The position numbers and the translations under genes are program-made. Of a stretch of 43,223 bases of DNA, positions 6,462 to 10,213 are shown piece after piece; the first letter of the stretch is position 1, and each line of letters begins with the position of its first letter. The stretch is from an uncultured Alphaproteobacteria bacterium. Its GTDB lineage: Bacteria > Pseudomonadota > Alphaproteobacteria > Rs-D84. The stretch is taken from NCBI GenBank assembly GCA_937900435.1, contig CALCEG010000010.1, positions 1 to 43,223 of the forward strand, in the 5' to 3' direction. The notes below the pieces were generated by a model, which ran no database searches, was not told where the DNA came from, and was given only the letters and a program-made list of their open reading frames with translations.

Positions 6462-7391
6462 ATGCGAATTATCACTCTTTTTTTTATGATTTTTCCTTTT
6501 ATGGCATCGGCAAACGTCTTGCCACTGGATGATGCGTTGCGTGCAACATATACCGCATGCGTTGGTATTGATGATGAATTGAGTGACCTGAAAACAATGG
6601 CCGGCATAAATACTGCAATTACATCTGTTGGAACGGCGGCCGGTGTTGGGGCAACGGTCACAGGGCTTGTAAAAGCCAGCAAGGATAAGCAGATTGAAAT
6701 AAAACTAGAAAAACTACGCGAAATTGAACAAAAAAATCCAGACCTACAGTCCACAAATGCTGAATGGGATAATTTTGAATCTGACCTGACAACAGAACTG
6801 GCCAATGCAAAAATAGAGGTTGAAAAATATCAGGCTGAAATTGAAAAACTGAATAAGCAATCAAAAAAATTGGGTAATTGGCGTACTGGCTTGATGGCGG
6901 GCGCAACCGCAACCAATGTGGCCGGCGCAATTATTGCCGGTACGAACAAGGTGGATGGCGACCTGAAAACGCAAATAGACAATTGTATCGGCAGTGTCAA
7001 AACCCTGCAAAATTCTATTATGCAGGCACGCATAAATGGTGAAGACGTGTCCGAGGCCGAGTCTATCGCATCCGCCTGTGGTGAATATGAATATGTTGAT
7101 GTGTCCAAGATAAATAATCGCGCCAAAGGTGCAATGATTTCATCTGCCGTTGGTGCTGCGACCGGTTTGGCCGGAACAATTACATCCGCCACAGCCAATT
7201 CAAACAAAATACACGATGCCCAGGGTGATGCAGCACAACAGAAAGAAAAGAATCTGAATACTGCGGCAAATGTGTTGGCGGGCGCAACAACTGTGGCTTC
7301 GGCAACGGCAACTGTATTCAACGCGACACAGATATCCGCGATAAAAAAAGTAGCCGCAGTTGCTGAAAAATGTACGGGGGTATTGAAATGA
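6462..7391 (+). CDS. Secreted protein with four glycine-zipper-like Ala/Gly/Thr segments separated by coiled-coil stretches
   Basis: 309-aa ORF. Signal peptide MRIITLFFMIFPFMASA. Segments AITSVGTAAGVGATVTGLV, GLMAGATATNVAGAIIAG, AMISSAVGAATGLAGTITSA and NVLAGATTVASATATV. The stop overlaps the next start (ATGA). Confidence 0.7.
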   Translation: MRIITLFFMIFPFMASANVLPLDDALRATYTACVGIDDELSDLKTMAGINTAITSVGTAAGVGATVTGLVKASKDKQIEIKLEKLREIEQKNPDLQSTNAEWDNFESDLTTELANAKIEVEKYQAEIEKLNKQSKKLGNWRTGLMAGATATNVAGAIIAGTNKVDGDLKTQIDNCIGSVKTLQNSIMQARINGEDVSEAESIASACGEYEYVDVSKINNRAKGAMISSAVGAATGLAGTITSATANSNKIHDAQGDAAQQKEKNLNTAANVLAGATTVASATATVFNATQISAIKKVAAVAEKCTGVLK

Positions 7392-10213
7392 AGAAAACCC
7401 TGATTGCATTTTTGTGTACATTTATTGCGTTACCTGCGGTGGCTGATAACTATATCAAATTCAAGGCATCTGCAATCGAAGATACGATAAATACAATGGT
7501 GCCAGAATCACATCGCGTAGCCGCGGCTGATGAATATCAAAAACAGATGGATTCAACCACCGGTAAAATATCTGTTATGGGCATTTACAAAGTTTGTGCG
7601 GCCGCTGGCTTCAATATAAATAACACAAATGGATATAACGGTTGTCGCCTGTTTATAAATACAATCGCAGAAAAATCTGGTTTTGGCTCTGGCAGCGCTA
7701 ACCAACAAAATTGTAAAACAAAATTCAGCGGTATTTGGAGTTTATCCTCCGATGGCAAACAATATCAATGTGTCGGCAAAGACGGCCATAAATTGGTATA
7801 TCACGCATCCTGTAACGGTGCGGGTGGCGATTGTATTCGGGATTTTTCATCCCTGCAAACCCAGGAACCAAATGCACGCGAATTTATACAGGCATACGGA
7901 CAACAAAAGAATTTACAATTTACATGTTGGTATACATTTGATGAATCGCGTTGGCAACTAGATAACCCAAAACCCCAAGATTACATAAAATGCAGTGCGG
8001 GTGGCAAGGCATACGAATTTGAATTTGACGATTTGATTCAGGACCCAGGTAAAACCGCGGTTGAATCTGAAAATACGACCCTGTGTGAAATGTTTGGTGG
8101 TAAAATTGTAAAACATCCAGACAGCAGTATTGAAAAACAATGGCAATCGTGCGAAGTATCAAGGGAAATTTGCAATGGCCCACTACATAATTTGGCAGTC
8201 AAAATCGGGCACAATGTAATGTACCAGGGATACTGCCGCCTGTCACGCACCGCAAAAGAAACATCGGTTGTTGGCCTAAAAACATTACCGGGTGTGGACA
8301 GTCGTGTGTTTTATAACACCGGTGCCCAAATGCGTGCCGGCATGGCAAAACAACAAACCGAAGAATATCTGCGCACAAAATTCCCAAATGAAACATATGT
8401 AAACTGTGACCCAAATCCAAAAATATTAAAAGAGGGCTTTGGAATTGACCGGGACTATGTCATGACCTGTACTGTTGGCAGCAAACAGGTTGATTTTATA
8501 TTCCATGACCTGACCGAAGGGAATGATGGACGTGCTGCAACCGGCATGGATGCAATGCAGTGTATAATCAGTGGTGGTACATTCAAGGGCGAATCCTGCC
8601 GTGGTCCAACCCAGGCAGAATGTAATGCCCTGGATGCTGCGTTACGTGCCAAGGGCTCGTCTGAGGGCGCAAAGTGGGATGACGATGTTCGGGCATGCAT
8701 CATGGGCAATGCAATGAAGACCTATAAACGCGATGTTGCAACGGGATATATTGTTGGTGCTGTGGTTATTATTGGTGGCACAATCGCGGTGATTGGTACA
8801 GGCGGTGCAGCGGCCCCTGCAATCATTGGTGGTGCAGAAATGCTGGTAACCGACCTGGCAATAAATTGGGCAATCGATGCGAACCACAGACGTTTGAGTC
8901 AAGGCGCAGCCACACGTTTTGTAAATTTTGTTGAAGATGCAGATAAATGCACCACCGAGGCCTGTGCCCTGAAAGTATTACAATCACATTATGCAACGTT
9001 ATCCGGTGTTATGAATGATTTGAATAAGGATGACCTGGCGGTGGTGGATGCAACAATGGAACGGCTGTTCGGGCTGATACAGACAGAATTTGTGGCATGT
9101 GGTAAAAATGACAAGGGGCAAACAGTCTATGCAAATCCGGCAGACTGTGCAATGCAACAATCGCATCTAAAAATTATGGATTATATCGACCCTGTGTCGG
9201 AACCTGTTTTGATAATAGGCAGTATTTTGTATAACCCCGGCTATGTGGCAAGCAAATTTATGAAAATGAAAAACGTCAGCAAATTGGCAAAATTAGATGA
9301 CTCAACAAGAATTACACGTGTTGTAAATCCTAAAAAAGCAAAAAATGTAGCAATTGGATTTATTGACGAATCCAAGTTTCTCAATAGAGATGTCAGCATC
9401 GAGGATTACATAGAAATCCTAAAAAAAGAAGGCTATAATGTCGAATTGCATTCAACCAATATAGGCATAAATCCAATGATAAGAGGTAGAGGTGAGGTAA
9501 GAACTTTTCAGATATCTAAATATACAGATGAAACGGATGTTGCTAAATTAGAATTGGATTTTATAAAAAATGCGTCAGATATAGATAAAAACTATAGACA
9601 AGGGTTCGTCGCACTAAAATATAACGATATTGTAAAAAACAACCCAGATAGTTGGTATAATACATACAAGACAATCTTGGAAGATTATTCATCAGAAGAT
9701 GCCGATATTGTGTATGCAAAAGAAAATTGGGGCAAAATGAGTGTTGAAGACAAGAAAAAATTTATTACAGAAACAAACCAAAAGTACCGCAATCTGATTT
9801 GTGAAAATCCAAAAGAATGTGTAATTAATTGGGATAAATCCAAAAGCATTGGCGGAGACGCCTCATATGACTCCCAAAGACTAGGAATAAATAAAAAATC
9901 AGAAAACGACATTGTTTCAGATGTATACAGTTATTCAACACCACAATCTAGCCCACGCAGACCGGATGAAGACTTTACAAAAACGTTACGAAATATTGTT
10001 CATGAAAATATTCATTACGGACAAGATGTTGGAAAAAGTGATATACCCACGTACTTACTTGAATATAATGACGAAAACTATATAAACCCAATGAATGTTC
10101 CCGAGTCACAAAAGTTTCTAGGCATTACTCCCGCATATAACTTACAACCCTTAGAAATTGAAGCAAAAGGCAGAGACGCTATGATTGTGACAGGAATATT
10201 AGAAAAAATGTAA
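7388..10213 (+). CDS. Large secreted/membrane Cys-rich modular protein with a C-terminal HExxH module
   Basis: The start is moved to the ATG at 7388 (MKKTLIAFLCTFIALPAVA signal peptide), which overlaps the upstream stop by 4 nt. Many Cys residues and an internal duplicated module. Hydrophobic glycine zipper GYIVGAVVIIGGTIAVIGTGGAAAPAIIGGA at nt 8738-8878. HENIH at nt 10001-10015. Confidence 0.75.
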   Translation: MKKTLIAFLCTFIALPAVADNYIKFKASAIEDTINTMVPESHRVAAADEYQKQMDSTTGKISVMGIYKVCAAAGFNINNTNGYNGCRLFINTIAEKSGFGSGSANQQNCKTKFSGIWSLSSDGKQYQCVGKDGHKLVYHASCNGAGGDCIRDFSSLQTQEPNAREFIQAYGQQKNLQFTCWYTFDESRWQLDNPKPQDYIKCSAGGKAYEFEFDDLIQDPGKTAVESENTTLCEMFGGKIVKHPDSSIEKQWQSCEVSREICNGPLHNLAVKIGHNVMYQGYCRLSRTAKETSVVGLKTLPGVDSRVFYNTGAQMRAGMAKQQTEEYLRTKFPNETYVNCDPNPKILKEGFGIDRDYVMTCTVGSKQVDFIFHDLTEGNDGRAATGMDAMQCIISGGTFKGESCRGPTQAECNALDAALRAKGSSEGAKWDDDVRACIMGNAMKTYKRDVATGYIVGAVVIIGGTIAVIGTGGAAAPAIIGGAEMLVTDLAINWAIDANHRRLSQGAATRFVNFVEDADKCTTEACALKVLQSHYATLSGVMNDLNKDDLAVVDATMERLFGLIQTEFVACGKNDKGQTVYANPADCAMQQSHLKIMDYIDPVSEPVLIIGSILYNPGYVASKFMKMKNVSKLAKLDDSTRITRVVNPKKAKNVAIGFIDESKFLNRDVSIEDYIEILKKEGYNVELHSTNIGINPMIRGRGEVRTFQISKYTDETDVAKLELDFIKNASDIDKNYRQGFVALKYNDIVKNNPDSWYNTYKTILEDYSSEDADIVYAKENWGKMSVEDKKKFITETNQKYRNLICENPKECVINWDKSKSIGGDASYDSQRLGINKKSENDIVSDVYSYSTPQSSPRRPDEDFTKTLRNIVHENIHYGQDVGKSDIPTYLLEYNDENYINPMNVPESQKFLGITPAYNLQPLEIEAKGRDAMIVTGILEKM

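What the first reader, a model, noticed from the sequence alone, without database searches (positions are those of the whole stretch)
6462..10213. Translationally coupled operon: secreted glycine-zipper protein plus a 941-aa Cys-rich modular protein
The two ORFs overlap by ATGA at 7388-7391, and both have clear signal peptides. The first protein alternates four Ala/Gly/Thr glycine-zipper-like hydrophobic segments with coiled-coil stretches. The second has an exported Cys-rich region of about 430 aa, a 45-aa glycine-zipper hydrophobic block (nt 8738-8878), a spacer of about 170 aa, and then a distinct C-terminal module. I cannot assign either protein to a known family. The layout (helper protein, delivery region, membrane segment, terminal enzymatic module) resembles polymorphic toxin or effector systems. 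However, no Rhs/YD, CdiA, PAAR, LXG or MAFB marker is visible. The operon lies between an orphan tail-fibre-like gene and a tRNA with att-like repeats, which fits an accessory origin.
Basis: inference. Interest (0 to 1): 0.65.

Follow-up and report, generated by a model that had tools for sequence, protein, structure and literature searches.

The report
Swappable-tail effector operon in gut Alphaproteobacteria
Two overlapping genes of an uncultured, tiny-genome gut bacterium (Candidatus Enterousia) encode an exported helper protein and a large carrier protein whose last third is an enzyme module that related strains swap for unrelated ones, much as bacterial polymorphic toxins do, but on an undescribed carrier and mostly without protective immunity genes.

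Summary
ORF1 (6462-7391) and ORF2 (7388-10213) overlap by ATGA, both have signal peptides, and the described layout is present.

Neither protein matches Pfam, NCBIfam, PADLOC, PHROGs or PDB.

The ORF1-ORF2 pair is a conserved, chromosomal module of Ca. Enterousia/Rs-D84 gut Alphaproteobacteria. It is not an accessory island.

- **Polymorphic tail.** ORF2's first 638 aa are conserved. Just after the motif KLAKLDD, similarity collapses, and homologues carry at least 14 unrelated tail families (divergent HExxH modules, Zeta-toxin kinase, kinase-like, J-domain, many unknown).
- **Cassette replacement.** The window's tail (9302-10213, GC 33% vs 44%) is a rare gluzincin-like HExxH...E module. It replaced another cassette, whose last 15 codons survive at 10221-10265.
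- **Mobile module.** The same module occurs on carriers only about 25% identical, on unrelated proteins, and standalone.
- **Immunity.** Only Zeta-tail alleles carry co-varying downstream genes. The window has none.
- **Paralogue.** A paralogous family has one uniform tail.

Verdict: a new carrier/partner variant of polymorphic toxin or effector systems. Whether the tail is delivered to another cell or acts in the producer is unresolved. Topology is ambiguous and no structure model of ORF2 could be obtained.

The parts
6462..7391 (+). ORF1, 309 aa: exported, all-helical partner protein. It has four nearly invariant small-residue (Ala/Gly/Thr/Ser) helices, a variable coiled-coil region (aa 76-128) and 4 invariant Cys. 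The signal peptide is aa 1-17 (nt 6462-6512).
   Evidence: 1992 homologues, uniform ~309 aa; all-helical model, low confidence
7388..7391 (+). ATGA start/stop overlap (translational coupling). A GGGGG SD-like run lies at 7376-7380.
   Evidence: the same overlap is found in related loci
7388..10213 (+). ORF2, 941 aa: modular carrier plus swappable C-terminal cassette
7388..7444 (+). ORF2 signal peptide (aa 1-19, AVA|D); not a lipobox
   Evidence: sequence; conserved in alignment A1
7445..8737 (+). Cys-rich extracytoplasmic region (aa 20-450): 18 conserved Cys and an internal duplication (about aa 155-240 vs 311-398, shared motif K-x-x-[DE]F-x-F-x-DL)
   Evidence: (hhalign prob 89%, E 2e-6)
8738..8878 (+). 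Gly/Ala-rich hydrophobic block (aa 451-497): H1 453-473, a TGGAAAP turn, and amphipathic H2 479-497 with conserved acidic residues
   Evidence: H1 deltaG about +0.8, H2 +6.9
8879..9196 (+). Conserved helical spacer (aa 498-603) with invariant C521-x4-C526
9197..9301 (+). Junction motif SEPVLIIGSILYNPGYV-ASKFMKMKNVSKLAKLDD (aa 604-638). Protein and DNA homology to other alleles ends here.
   Evidence: DNA identity to L001/L003 ends at nt 9300
9302..10213 (+). Tail cassette (aa 639-941): low-GC, rare HExxH...E (gluzincin-like) module. HENIH is aa 872-876 (nt 10001-10015). The distal conserved Glu is E923 (nt 10154-10156).
   Evidence: GC 33.2% vs 43.9%
10221..10268 (+). Remnant of a displaced S01-type cassette: RMDRDVGLRILDMLE plus stop, matching the last 15 codons of P0007/P0003-type tails. 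DNA homology to L001 resumes at 10223, inside L001's last 46 nt of coding sequence.
10223..10566 (.). Conserved non-coding backbone shared with loci that carry other tails (right-hand recombination arm). It contains no credible ORF.
10891..10965 (-). tRNA-Met(CAT). It marks the conserved right flank (then PagL 11105-11662, UDG, GyrB). Three copies of its 3' end lie at 10543-10567, 10716-10740 and 10886-10910.

Best explanation
This is a lineage-specific polymorphic effector locus. Both genes are translated together through the ATGA coupling, and both products are exported by Sec.

ORF1 is a conserved helical partner of the carrier. It is not an immunity protein.

ORF2 is a carrier made of several parts: a disulfide-rich repeated ectodomain, a Gly-rich membrane-active block, a conserved spacer, and a Lys-rich junction that ends in KLAKLDD. 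An enzymatic tail follows the junction. Strains exchange this tail by homologous recombination between the conserved carrier coding sequence on the left and the conserved intergenic backbone on the right.

The window's allele acquired a low-GC cassette that encodes a gluzincin-like zinc metallopeptidase (H872-E873-x-x-H876 ... E923). It displaced an S01-type tail, and 45 nt of that tail remain.

What I infer but have not shown:
- The carrier and ORF1 present or deliver the tail to another cell, with the Gly-rich block acting as the membrane-insertion or translocation element.
That would explain why no immunity gene accompanies it.

Shown: the polymorphism, the junction, cassette replacement, independent mobility of the module, conserved catalytic residues, co-evolution of ORF1 with the carrier, and co-varying downstream genes at Zeta-tail alleles only.

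Inferred: export beyond the inner membrane, delivery to another cell, peptidase activity, and the target.
For: - Polymorphism: 118 homologues mostly match only query residues 1 to ~640. Mean identity is about 0.6 before residue 640 and about 0.07 after it. The tails form 14 families and 37 sub-types.
- Turnover among close relatives: carriers at least 90% identical carry five tail families.
- Uncoupled evolution: tail identity is uncoupled from the carrier and from ORF1 (Spearman 0.09-0.23), whereas ORF1 and the carrier co-vary (0.71-0.73).
- DNA breakpoints: window vs L001 is 91% identical over 6356-9300, has no similarity over 9301-10222, and is 89% identical from 10223, which lies inside L001's last codons.
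- Remnants: RMDRDVGLRILDMLE* at 10221-10268. A second, independent remnant occurs in L012.
- Composition: the cassette has GC 33.2% (GC3 27%) against 43.9% (GC3 39%) for the conserved part.
- Module mobility: the window's tail matches only 15 of 1.84e9 representative proteins. These include carriers 21-29% identical in the N-terminus, proteins with no ORF2-like N-terminus, and standalone 331-364-aa proteins.
- Catalytic signature: across HExxH tails that are 10-38% identical, the only invariant columns are H, E and H, plus a distal E conserved in at least 90%.
- Recognised toxin and effector domains in other tails: Zeta_toxin (E 1e-23), Kdo/Pkinase-like, and DnaJ.
- Zeta-tail alleles in three different genomic contexts always carry a homologous 180-aa ORF, and the two loci with enough downstream sequence also carry an HD_4 ORF. 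These genes are absent from all 41 other sequences searched, which include the window.
Against: - No secretion or outer-membrane-crossing route is identified.
- The organism is a diderm with LPS (LpxC, LpxK, PagL). The H1 segment (deltaG about +0.8) could act as a stop-transfer anchor in the inner membrane.
- The flank after the hydrophobic block and the junction are Lys/Arg-rich. By the positive-inside rule this suggests a cytoplasmic tail in the producer.
- Recognisable tails (P-loop kinase, protein kinase, J-domain) need a cytoplasm, and standalone copies of the window's module lack a signal peptide.
- No immunity gene accompanies the window's tail or most other tails.
- No nuclease, deaminase or ART domains, which are typical of interbacterial polymorphic toxins, were recognised.
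- The locus is core and single-copy rather than an island with orphan cassette arrays.
- The HExxH module has no significant similarity to any known peptidase family. The best matches are M48 at E 0.12 and Tox-MPTase2 at E 0.034.
- No usable 3-D model was obtained.
Confidence: 0.5

Rival explanations
1. Cis-acting transmembrane sensor-effector (abortive-infection, defence or kin-discrimination type). ORF2 would be a type-I inner-membrane protein. Its Cys-rich ectodomain, together with periplasmic ORF1, would sense an external event such as phage attack, envelope damage or contact. It would then activate a swappable toxic or regulatory enzyme domain in the producer's own cytoplasm, for example a zinc protease analogous to Lit or BlaR1-type sensor proteases, or a Zeta kinase held in check by an antitoxin.
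For: - There is a single insertable hydrophobic segment (H1). H2 and residues 607-625 are not TM-like.
- The C-flank of the block and the junction are positively charged.
- The ATP- or Hsp70-dependent tail domains need a cytoplasm.
- Standalone module copies, and the Zeta-linked 180-aa/HD_4 proteins, lack signal peptides.
- Most tails need no immunity gene.
- Effector swapping is also typical of defence systems (my own knowledge).
- The weakest-E PDB hit of the HExxH profile is an M48 peptidase. From my own knowledge, M48 belongs to the same clan as BlaR1; this was not significant.
Against: - There is no match to any PADLOC defence model.
- The pair is core and syntenic in a lineage with genomes under 1 Mb, rather than sporadic in defence islands.
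- C521/C526 are invariant and lie after the block, which fits an oxidising compartment.
- The family-B C-terminal domain occurs both with and without an extra hydrophobic segment before it. So not all of these Gly-rich segments can be fixed membrane spans.
- Displaced-cassette remnants and standalone cassettes are the classical signature of polymorphic toxins (PMC3482391).
Confidence: 0.27
2. Classical interbacterial polymorphic toxin with cognate immunity. The HExxH tail would kill sibling or competitor bacteria, and immunity would be encoded elsewhere in the genome or be too small or divergent to be seen.
For: - Zeta-tail alleles show the classical toxin plus co-varying downstream gene arrangement, including an extra immunity-like paralogue in L043.
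- Small helical ORFs follow two distant HExxH-tail genes within 13-30 nt, in L020 and L035.
- Serial cassette displacement with remnants is seen.
Against: - The window's cassette spans 9301-10222 and is bounded on the right by backbone shared with other tail types, which leaves no room for an immunity gene.
- Flanks do not co-vary with tail type for the S00, S01, S03, S10 and S13 tails.
- A standalone, promoter-bearing, signal-peptide-less copy (P0239) has no adjacent candidate either.
- Metallopeptidase toxin domains generally have no listed immunity protein (PMC3482391).
Confidence: 0.1
3. Housekeeping envelope complex. ORF1 and ORF2 would form a structural or transport assembly of the Enterousia envelope, and the variable C-terminus would reflect relaxed or diversifying evolution, or antigenic variation, rather than a weapon.
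For: - The pair is near-universal and duplicated (families A and B) in a reduced-genome lineage.
- ORF1 is 50-64% identical even between the two families.
- Family B has one conserved C-terminal domain.
- Rs-D84 genomes lack standard transporters and encode many unexplained membrane proteins (PMC12306168).
Against: - The tails are unrelated folded enzyme modules, not drifted versions of one domain.
- Catalytic residues are the only invariant positions in the HExxH tails.
- Replacement is by discrete cassettes with a GC discontinuity and remnants.
- The same module moves between unrelated proteins.
Confidence: 0.08

Closest known systems
Sec-dependent polymorphic toxins/effectors with lineage-specific N-terminal domains: Neisseria MafB (MAFB-N/DUF1020), Microscilla-N, Amoebophilus APD1/APD2 (Zhang et al. 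2012, PMC3482391)
   Same: A signal peptide is followed by a clade-restricted, highly conserved N-terminal region and then extremely polymorphic C-terminal enzymatic domains. There is no dedicated secretion-system marker. In the host-directed APD1/2 type there are no immunity genes. As in MafB, variation is serial, by cassette displacement.
   Different: There is no sequence relationship: no DUF1020 or any other Pfam hit. The carrier is much larger (638 aa), disulfide-rich, and contains a Gly-rich hydrophobic block. An obligatory, translationally coupled, exported partner (ORF1) precedes it. There is no lipobox, unlike APD1/2. There are no arrays of orphan cassettes or immunity genes, unlike maf islands.
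CdiA-CT/CdiI and Rhs-CT polymorphic toxin loci
   Same: A conserved junction motif (here ...KLAKLDD; compare VENN in CdiA or PxxxxDPxGL in Rhs, from my own knowledge) demarcates a swappable C-terminal toxin. Displaced 3' fragments remain downstream. Toxin modules are shared among unrelated carriers.
   Different: There are no TPS domain, FHA repeats, YD repeats, PAAR or VgrG context. Immunity genes are absent, except at Zeta-tail alleles.
Single-chain AB toxins and colicin/pyocin-type bacteriocins (receptor-binding, then translocation with a hydrophobic helical element, then a catalytic domain)
   Same: The order of modules is the same: Cys-rich repeat ectodomain, then hydrophobic Gly-rich helices, then a C-terminal enzyme. 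The resemblance is functional only.
   Different: No homology was detected; Pyocin S5 appears only as a non-significant coiled-coil-type match at E 2.1. Release and uptake routes are unknown. A conserved partner protein is present.
Zincin/gluzincin metallopeptidases (HExxH + distal Glu), including toxin families Tox-MPTase1-5 and sensor proteases of the M48/M56 clan
   Same: The window's tail has HENIH (872-876) and a conserved distal Glu (E923). These are the only invariant positions across the HExxH tail superfamily.
   Different: No significant match to any peptidase family: M48 E 0.12 in PDB, and Tox-MPTase2 E 0.034, SprT-like E 0.1 and M35 E 0.087 in Pfam, all below cut-offs. The fold was not tested.
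Epsilon/zeta (PezAT)-type toxin-antitoxin and Zeta-domain effectors
   Same: Six homologue clusters carry PF06414 Zeta_toxin tails. The three whose loci were fetched are followed by linked cytoplasmic genes, a 180-aa ORF and, where enough downstream sequence exists, an HD_4 phosphohydrolase. This could act as an antidote, by analogy with hydrolase antitoxins (analogy from my own knowledge).
   Different: This concerns sister alleles, not the window's allele. The linked proteins are not epsilon/PezA homologues and have no Pfam hit.

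Membership tests
Polymorphic toxin systems (sensu Zhang/Aravind 2012) | Conserved N-terminal trafficking or presentation region shared by many proteins of a clade | tested here: met
   Residues 1-638 are conserved (mean identity about 0.6) in 118 homologues; a signal peptide is present
Polymorphic toxin systems (sensu Zhang/Aravind 2012) | Unrelated C-terminal toxin domains in otherwise near-identical proteins, with a sharp junction | tested here: met
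   There are 14 tail families and 37 sub-types. Five families occur on carriers at least 90% identical. The break falls at residues 630-644
Polymorphic toxin systems (sensu Zhang/Aravind 2012) | Diversification by recombination with cassettes (displaced remnants, standalone cassettes) | tested here: met
   DNA breakpoints at 9300 and 10223 and a 15-codon remnant. A second remnant in L012. Standalone copies P0239, P0245 and P0247. However, no orphan arrays were found in the loci examined
Polymorphic toxin systems (sensu Zhang/Aravind 2012) | Cognate immunity gene immediately downstream, co-varying with the toxin domain | tested here: not met
   The window has no credible ORF in 10214-10890, and that DNA is backbone shared with other tail types. 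The feature is met only at Zeta-tail alleles
Polymorphic toxin systems (sensu Zhang/Aravind 2012) | Toxin domains shared with other delivery contexts | tested here: inconclusive
   The window's module occurs on carriers 21-29% identical, on two signal-peptide proteins with no ORF2-like N-terminus, and standalone. None of those carriers has a recognisable secretion-system domain
Polymorphic toxin systems (sensu Zhang/Aravind 2012) | Export and toxicity towards another cell | not testable with these tools
   Needs experiments. Sequence-based topology is ambiguous
Rhs / CdiA / PAAR / LXG / MafB carriers | YD repeats, TPS/FHA domains, PAAR, LXG or DUF1020 domain | tested here: not met
   No Pfam or NCBIfam family was found for ORF2 at E<=1, and none of these was found in 38 representative homologues
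Gluzincin metallopeptidase | HExxH motif plus a distal Glu as third zinc ligand | tested here: met
   H872, E873 and H876 are invariant, and E923 is at least 90% conserved across 16 tails that are 10-38% identical. 47 of 51 members of the tail supercluster have HExxH
Gluzincin metallopeptidase | Significant sequence or fold similarity to a known zincin family | tested here: not met
   Best PDB profile hit is M48 at E 0.12. Pfam hits are all sub-threshold. The fold could not be tested because the structure server was unavailable
Known anti-phage defence systems (PADLOC-DB 2.0) | Match to a defence-system protein model | tested here: not met
   No hit for ORF2, and only E>=0.03 noise for ORF1
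ClyA/Hbl/Nhe alpha-pore-forming toxins (considered for ORF1 and the hydrophobic block) | Sequence or fold similarity to the family | tested here: not met
   Only Hbl L1 at E 0.12 for ORF2 residues 409-486. The ORF1 profile finds only coiled-coil noise. The ORF1 model has pLDDT 46 and is unusable
Integrated mobile element / genomic island (for the whole operon) | Sporadic distribution, integrase, att-bounded insertion, phage or plasmid relatives | tested here: not met
   The pair is conserved and syntenic in the lineage. The att-like tRNA repeats bound only two ~170-nt footprints to the right of the operon. There are no phage, plasmid or viral relatives

The most novel reading that the evidence does not exclude
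ORF1 plus the ORF2 carrier are a previously unknown two-protein machine of reduced-genome, partner-dependent gut Alphaproteobacteria (Rs-D84/Enterousia). It links an extracytoplasmic, disulfide-rich sensor or adhesin to a hot-swappable enzymatic warhead. It could work in one of two ways. It could be a new Sec-dependent route that inserts the Gly-rich block into a partner cell's membrane and delivers the tail. Or it could be a new class of transmembrane 'sense outside, fire inside' suicide or defence module. In either case it would also be a reservoir of dozens of uncharacterised effector domain families.
Probability: 0.3. Interest if true: 0.85.

Novelty: new variant of a known kind. Interest (0 to 1): 0.62.

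Why it matters
Ca. Enterousia and the wider Rs-D84 order are widespread gut bacteria of humans, livestock, birds and termites. Their genomes are under 1 Mb, they lack respiration and have few transporters, so they presumably depend on partners (PMC12306168). How they interact with those partners is unknown.

This operon and its paralogue take up roughly 1% of such a genome. The pair is conserved across the lineage, yet its enzymatic tail turns over between near-identical strains. That pattern is the signature of an interaction or conflict interface.

If the reading is right, the locus provides four things:
1. A new carrier and partner architecture for polymorphic effectors in diderm bacteria.
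2. A defined recombination junction (KLAKLDD) that can be used to mine further cassettes.
3. About 30 tail families with no known domain, including a new zincin-like family.
4. A testable handle on the lifestyle of an uncultured lineage.

It would also bear on the open question of how signal-peptide-only polymorphic toxins such as MafB leave or act from diderm cells.

Tried and rejected
- **Family searches.** Pfam, NCBIfam, PADLOC and PHROGs scans of both proteins gave nothing significant.
- **PDB searches.** PDB sequence and profile searches for ORF2, ORF1, the carrier profile and the HExxH profile gave only noise.
- **ORF1 structure.** The AlphaFold2 model of ORF1 has pLDDT 46. It is all-helical, so no fold search was run on it.
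- **ORF2 structure.** The AlphaFold2 job for ORF2 was lost once, and every later submission failed because the server did not answer. No Foldseek search was possible.
- **Tail clustering.** Single-linkage clustering of whole tails chained everything together, because tails are mosaics that share linker modules. I replaced it with clustering of the last 200 aa.
- **P0239 as a truncated contig artefact.** Rejected: there are in-frame stops, a -10-like box and an SD-like run upstream.
- **Immunity genes upstream of ORF1.** Rejected: upstream DNA does not co-vary with tail type.
- **The 74-aa TTG ORF at 10492-10716 as immunity.** Rejected: it overlaps the tRNA-end repeats and lies in backbone shared with other tail types.
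- **ORF1 homologous to part of ORF2.** Rejected: hhalign probability 1.9%.
- **Phage, plasmid or viral origin.** No matches.
- **ncRNA in the intergenic region.** Rfam finds only the tRNAs.
- **Topology from hydropathy, charge and a crude Hessa-scale scan.** Internally inconsistent across families, so left unresolved.
- **Literature.** No description of this family was found.

Full report
**1. The observation**

The two ORFs exist as described. ORF1 is 6462-7391 (309 aa) and ORF2 is 7388-10213 (941 aa). The ATGA overlap is at 7388-7391, with a G-run at 7376-7380.

Both proteins start with canonical Sec signal peptides, with AXA sites after residues 17 and 19.

ORF1 is predicted to be all-helical. 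It has four small-residue helices (A+G+S+T fraction 0.65-0.78), which are nearly invariant. A variable coiled-coil region lies between the first two of these helices, and there are four invariant cysteines.

ORF2 has these parts:
- 18 conserved cysteines between residues 70 and 437, with an internal duplication (hhalign prob 89%, E 2e-6).
- One Gly/Ala-rich hydrophobic block at residues 451-497.
- A conserved spacer with an invariant C521-x4-C526.
- A distinct C-terminal module.

Neither protein matches any Pfam, NCBIfam, PADLOC or PHROG family, or any PDB sequence or profile.

**2. Who has it**

ORF2 has 118 homologue clusters. ORF1 has about 2,000 homologues of uniform length. All are unnamed 'hypothetical proteins' from uncultured Alphaproteobacteria or Candidatus Enterousia.

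A scan of one genome per species found 35 loci. All are in Enterousia/Rs-D84-like MAGs from human, ruminant, bird and termite guts. This lineage has genomes under 1 Mb, no respiration and few transporters (PMC12306168).

ORF1 precedes ORF2 with the same overlap in nearly all loci. This holds even where ORF2 is only 20-27% identical, and there ORF1 is still 50-64% identical.

The right flank (tRNA-Met, PagL, UDG, GyrB) is shared by several genomes. The window itself is core chromosome, with LpxC, LpxK, GyrB, primase and a tRNA synthetase. No phage, plasmid or viral contig carries a relative.

The operon is therefore a lineage-wide chromosomal module, not an accessory island.

**3. The C-terminus is polymorphic**

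- Most homologues align only to query residues 1 to ~640. Mean identity falls from about 0.6 to about 0.07 within some 20 residues.
- The junction is the conserved motif ...SEPVLIIGSI-YNPG[YF]V...K-K..SK[LV]AK(L)DD.
- The tails fall into 14 families and 37 sub-types.
- Carriers at least 90% identical to the window's bear five different tail families.
- Across loci, tail identity is uncorrelated with carrier or ORF1 identity (Spearman 0.09-0.23). ORF1 and the carrier co-vary (about 0.7). ORF1 therefore belongs to the carrier and is not an immunity protein.
- Recognisable tails are Zeta_toxin/AAA_33 (E 1e-23), Kdo/protein-kinase-like and DnaJ. Most tails have no known domain.

**4. Cassette replacement in the window**

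Compared with L001, which carries an S01-type tail, the DNA is:
- 91% identical over 6356-9300;
- unrelated over 9301-10222;
- 89% identical again from 10223, a point that lies inside the last 46 nt of L001's gene.

Accordingly, 10221-10268 still reads RMDRDVGLRILDMLE-stop, which is the C-terminal end of S01 tails. The left break falls in the codon after KLAKLDD.

The inserted cassette has 33.2% GC (GC3 27%), against 43.9% (GC3 39%) for the conserved part. An independent remnant of another tail type lies after the gene in L012.

**5. The window's tail**

It belongs to a very divergent supercluster of 51 tails, of which 47 have HExxH. In an alignment of 16 representatives that are 10-38% identical, the only invariant columns are H872, E873 and H876, and E923 is conserved in at least 90%. 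This matches a gluzincin catalytic signature.

Similarity to known peptidases is not significant (M48 E 0.12; Tox-MPTase2 E 0.034).

An exhaustive HMMER search of 1.84 billion representatives finds this module type in only 15 proteins. They include:
- carriers whose N-termini are 21-29% identical to ORF2;
- two signal-peptide proteins with no ORF2-like N-terminus, one of them next to a serine recombinase;
- standalone 331-364-aa proteins without signal peptides, one with its own -10/SD signals next to PagL.

The module therefore moves independently of its carrier.

**6. Immunity genes**

The window has no credible ORF between the stop codon and the tRNA. That DNA is backbone shared with loci that carry other tails. 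Upstream and downstream DNA does not co-vary with tail type.

Zeta tails are the exception. In three different genomic contexts they are followed by a homologous 180-aa ORF. Where enough downstream sequence exists, an HD_4 phosphohydrolase ORF follows too. These genes are absent from the other 41 sequences searched, which include the window.

Two distant HExxH-tail genes have unrelated small helical ORFs 13-30 nt downstream.

According to Zhang et al. 2012, metallopeptidase toxin domains usually have no listed immunity protein. [quoted passage not shown]

**7. Family B and topology**

A paralogous family (16 loci, sometimes in the same genome) has the same N-domain and hydrophobic block. It then has a Pro-rich linker, usually a second hydrophobic segment, and one conserved C-terminal domain. 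Some family A tails are homologous to that domain (hhalign 99.5%, E 1e-22) but lack the second hydrophobic segment.

The topology evidence conflicts:
- A crude translocon-scale scan rates only H1 (451-469, about +0.8 kcal/mol) as insertable.
- The flank after the block and the junction are Lys/Arg-rich, which would put the tail in the producer's cytoplasm.
- The invariant Cys pair after the block, and the family A/B comparison, argue that these Gly-rich segments are not all fixed spans.

Topology, and hence whether the tail acts in trans or in cis, is unresolved. The ORF2 structure job could not be run because the server failed.

**8. Interpretation**

The robust part is that this is a polymorphic effector locus on a new carrier with a new obligatory partner. 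Tails are exchanged by recombination at a defined junction, and the window carries a rare zincin-like tail.

My best mechanistic reading (confidence about 0.5) is presentation or delivery of the tail to another cell, with a target the producer lacks.

The main rival (about 0.27) is a cis-acting transmembrane sensor-effector. Classical immunity-protected interbacterial toxin (about 0.1) and housekeeping complex (about 0.08) are less likely.

The closest known systems are MafB and the Amoebophilus APD1/2 effectors (PMC3482391). They resemble this locus in logic but not in sequence. I found no prior description of the family.

Noticed in passing
window 10543-10567, 10716-10740, 10886-10910 (with hairpins at 10527-10542, 10694-10714, 10862-10882): There are three direct copies of the 3' end of tRNA-Met(CAT), 173 and 170 nt apart. 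Each is followed on the minus strand by a terminator-like hairpin. The related locus L001 has a single copy, so the window lineage carries two ~170-nt att-like footprints at this tRNA. They bound no genes and do not include the operon.
   Followed up: partly
window 4788-6020 (-): This 410-aa ORF has a first ~85 aa that match a phage tail protein family (phrog_1640, E 3e-7), and it has no Pfam hit. It sits between the operon and an RgpF/GT2/RmlD glycan-synthesis cluster, and it is not found at this position in the other loci examined.
   Followed up: partly
window 28777-29724 (+) and 30914-33349 (-): A VirB4/TrbE type IV secretion ATPase (PF03135, E 5e-12) lies here. Next to it is a 316-aa protein with a HELDH motif, a weak MPTase-PolyVal hit (E 0.058), and weak similarity to linker parts of some ORF2 tails.
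   Followed up: no
L003 6874-7022 and 11140-11363 (homologous to window 10295-10441/10290-10511): In this related genome, a ~150-nt sequence found downstream of ORF2 is also present just upstream of ORF1. It is thus a direct repeat bracketing the whole operon.
   Followed up: no
window 6687-6845 (ORF1 aa ~76-128): The central coiled-coil segment of ORF1 exists in at least three unrelated sequence variants among homologues, while the rest of the protein is nearly invariant. ORF1 is therefore itself mosaic.
   Followed up: partly
L043 8175-8600; L005 11064-12153: Zeta-tail loci carry a 180-aa ORF plus an HD_4 phosphohydrolase ORF. L043 also has an extra 141-aa paralogue (44% identity) of the 180-aa ORF. 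This looks like a small immunity-gene array.
   Followed up: partly
L032, L036, L039 (10-71 nt after the family-B ORF2): A conserved 108-aa secreted, Cys-containing ORF follows the non-polymorphic family-B gene in three genomes. It may be a third component of that paralogous system.
   Followed up: no
L012 10314-10346: The last 11 codons of an S00-type (HEQSH) tail lie just after the stop of a gene that now carries an HEVGH-type tail. This is a second, independent displaced-cassette remnant.
   Followed up: partly
window 34837-37436 (-): A HlyD-type membrane-fusion protein and a TolC-like outer-membrane efflux protein are adjacent. They could form a type I secretion or efflux system. No link to the operon was tested.
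   Followed up: no
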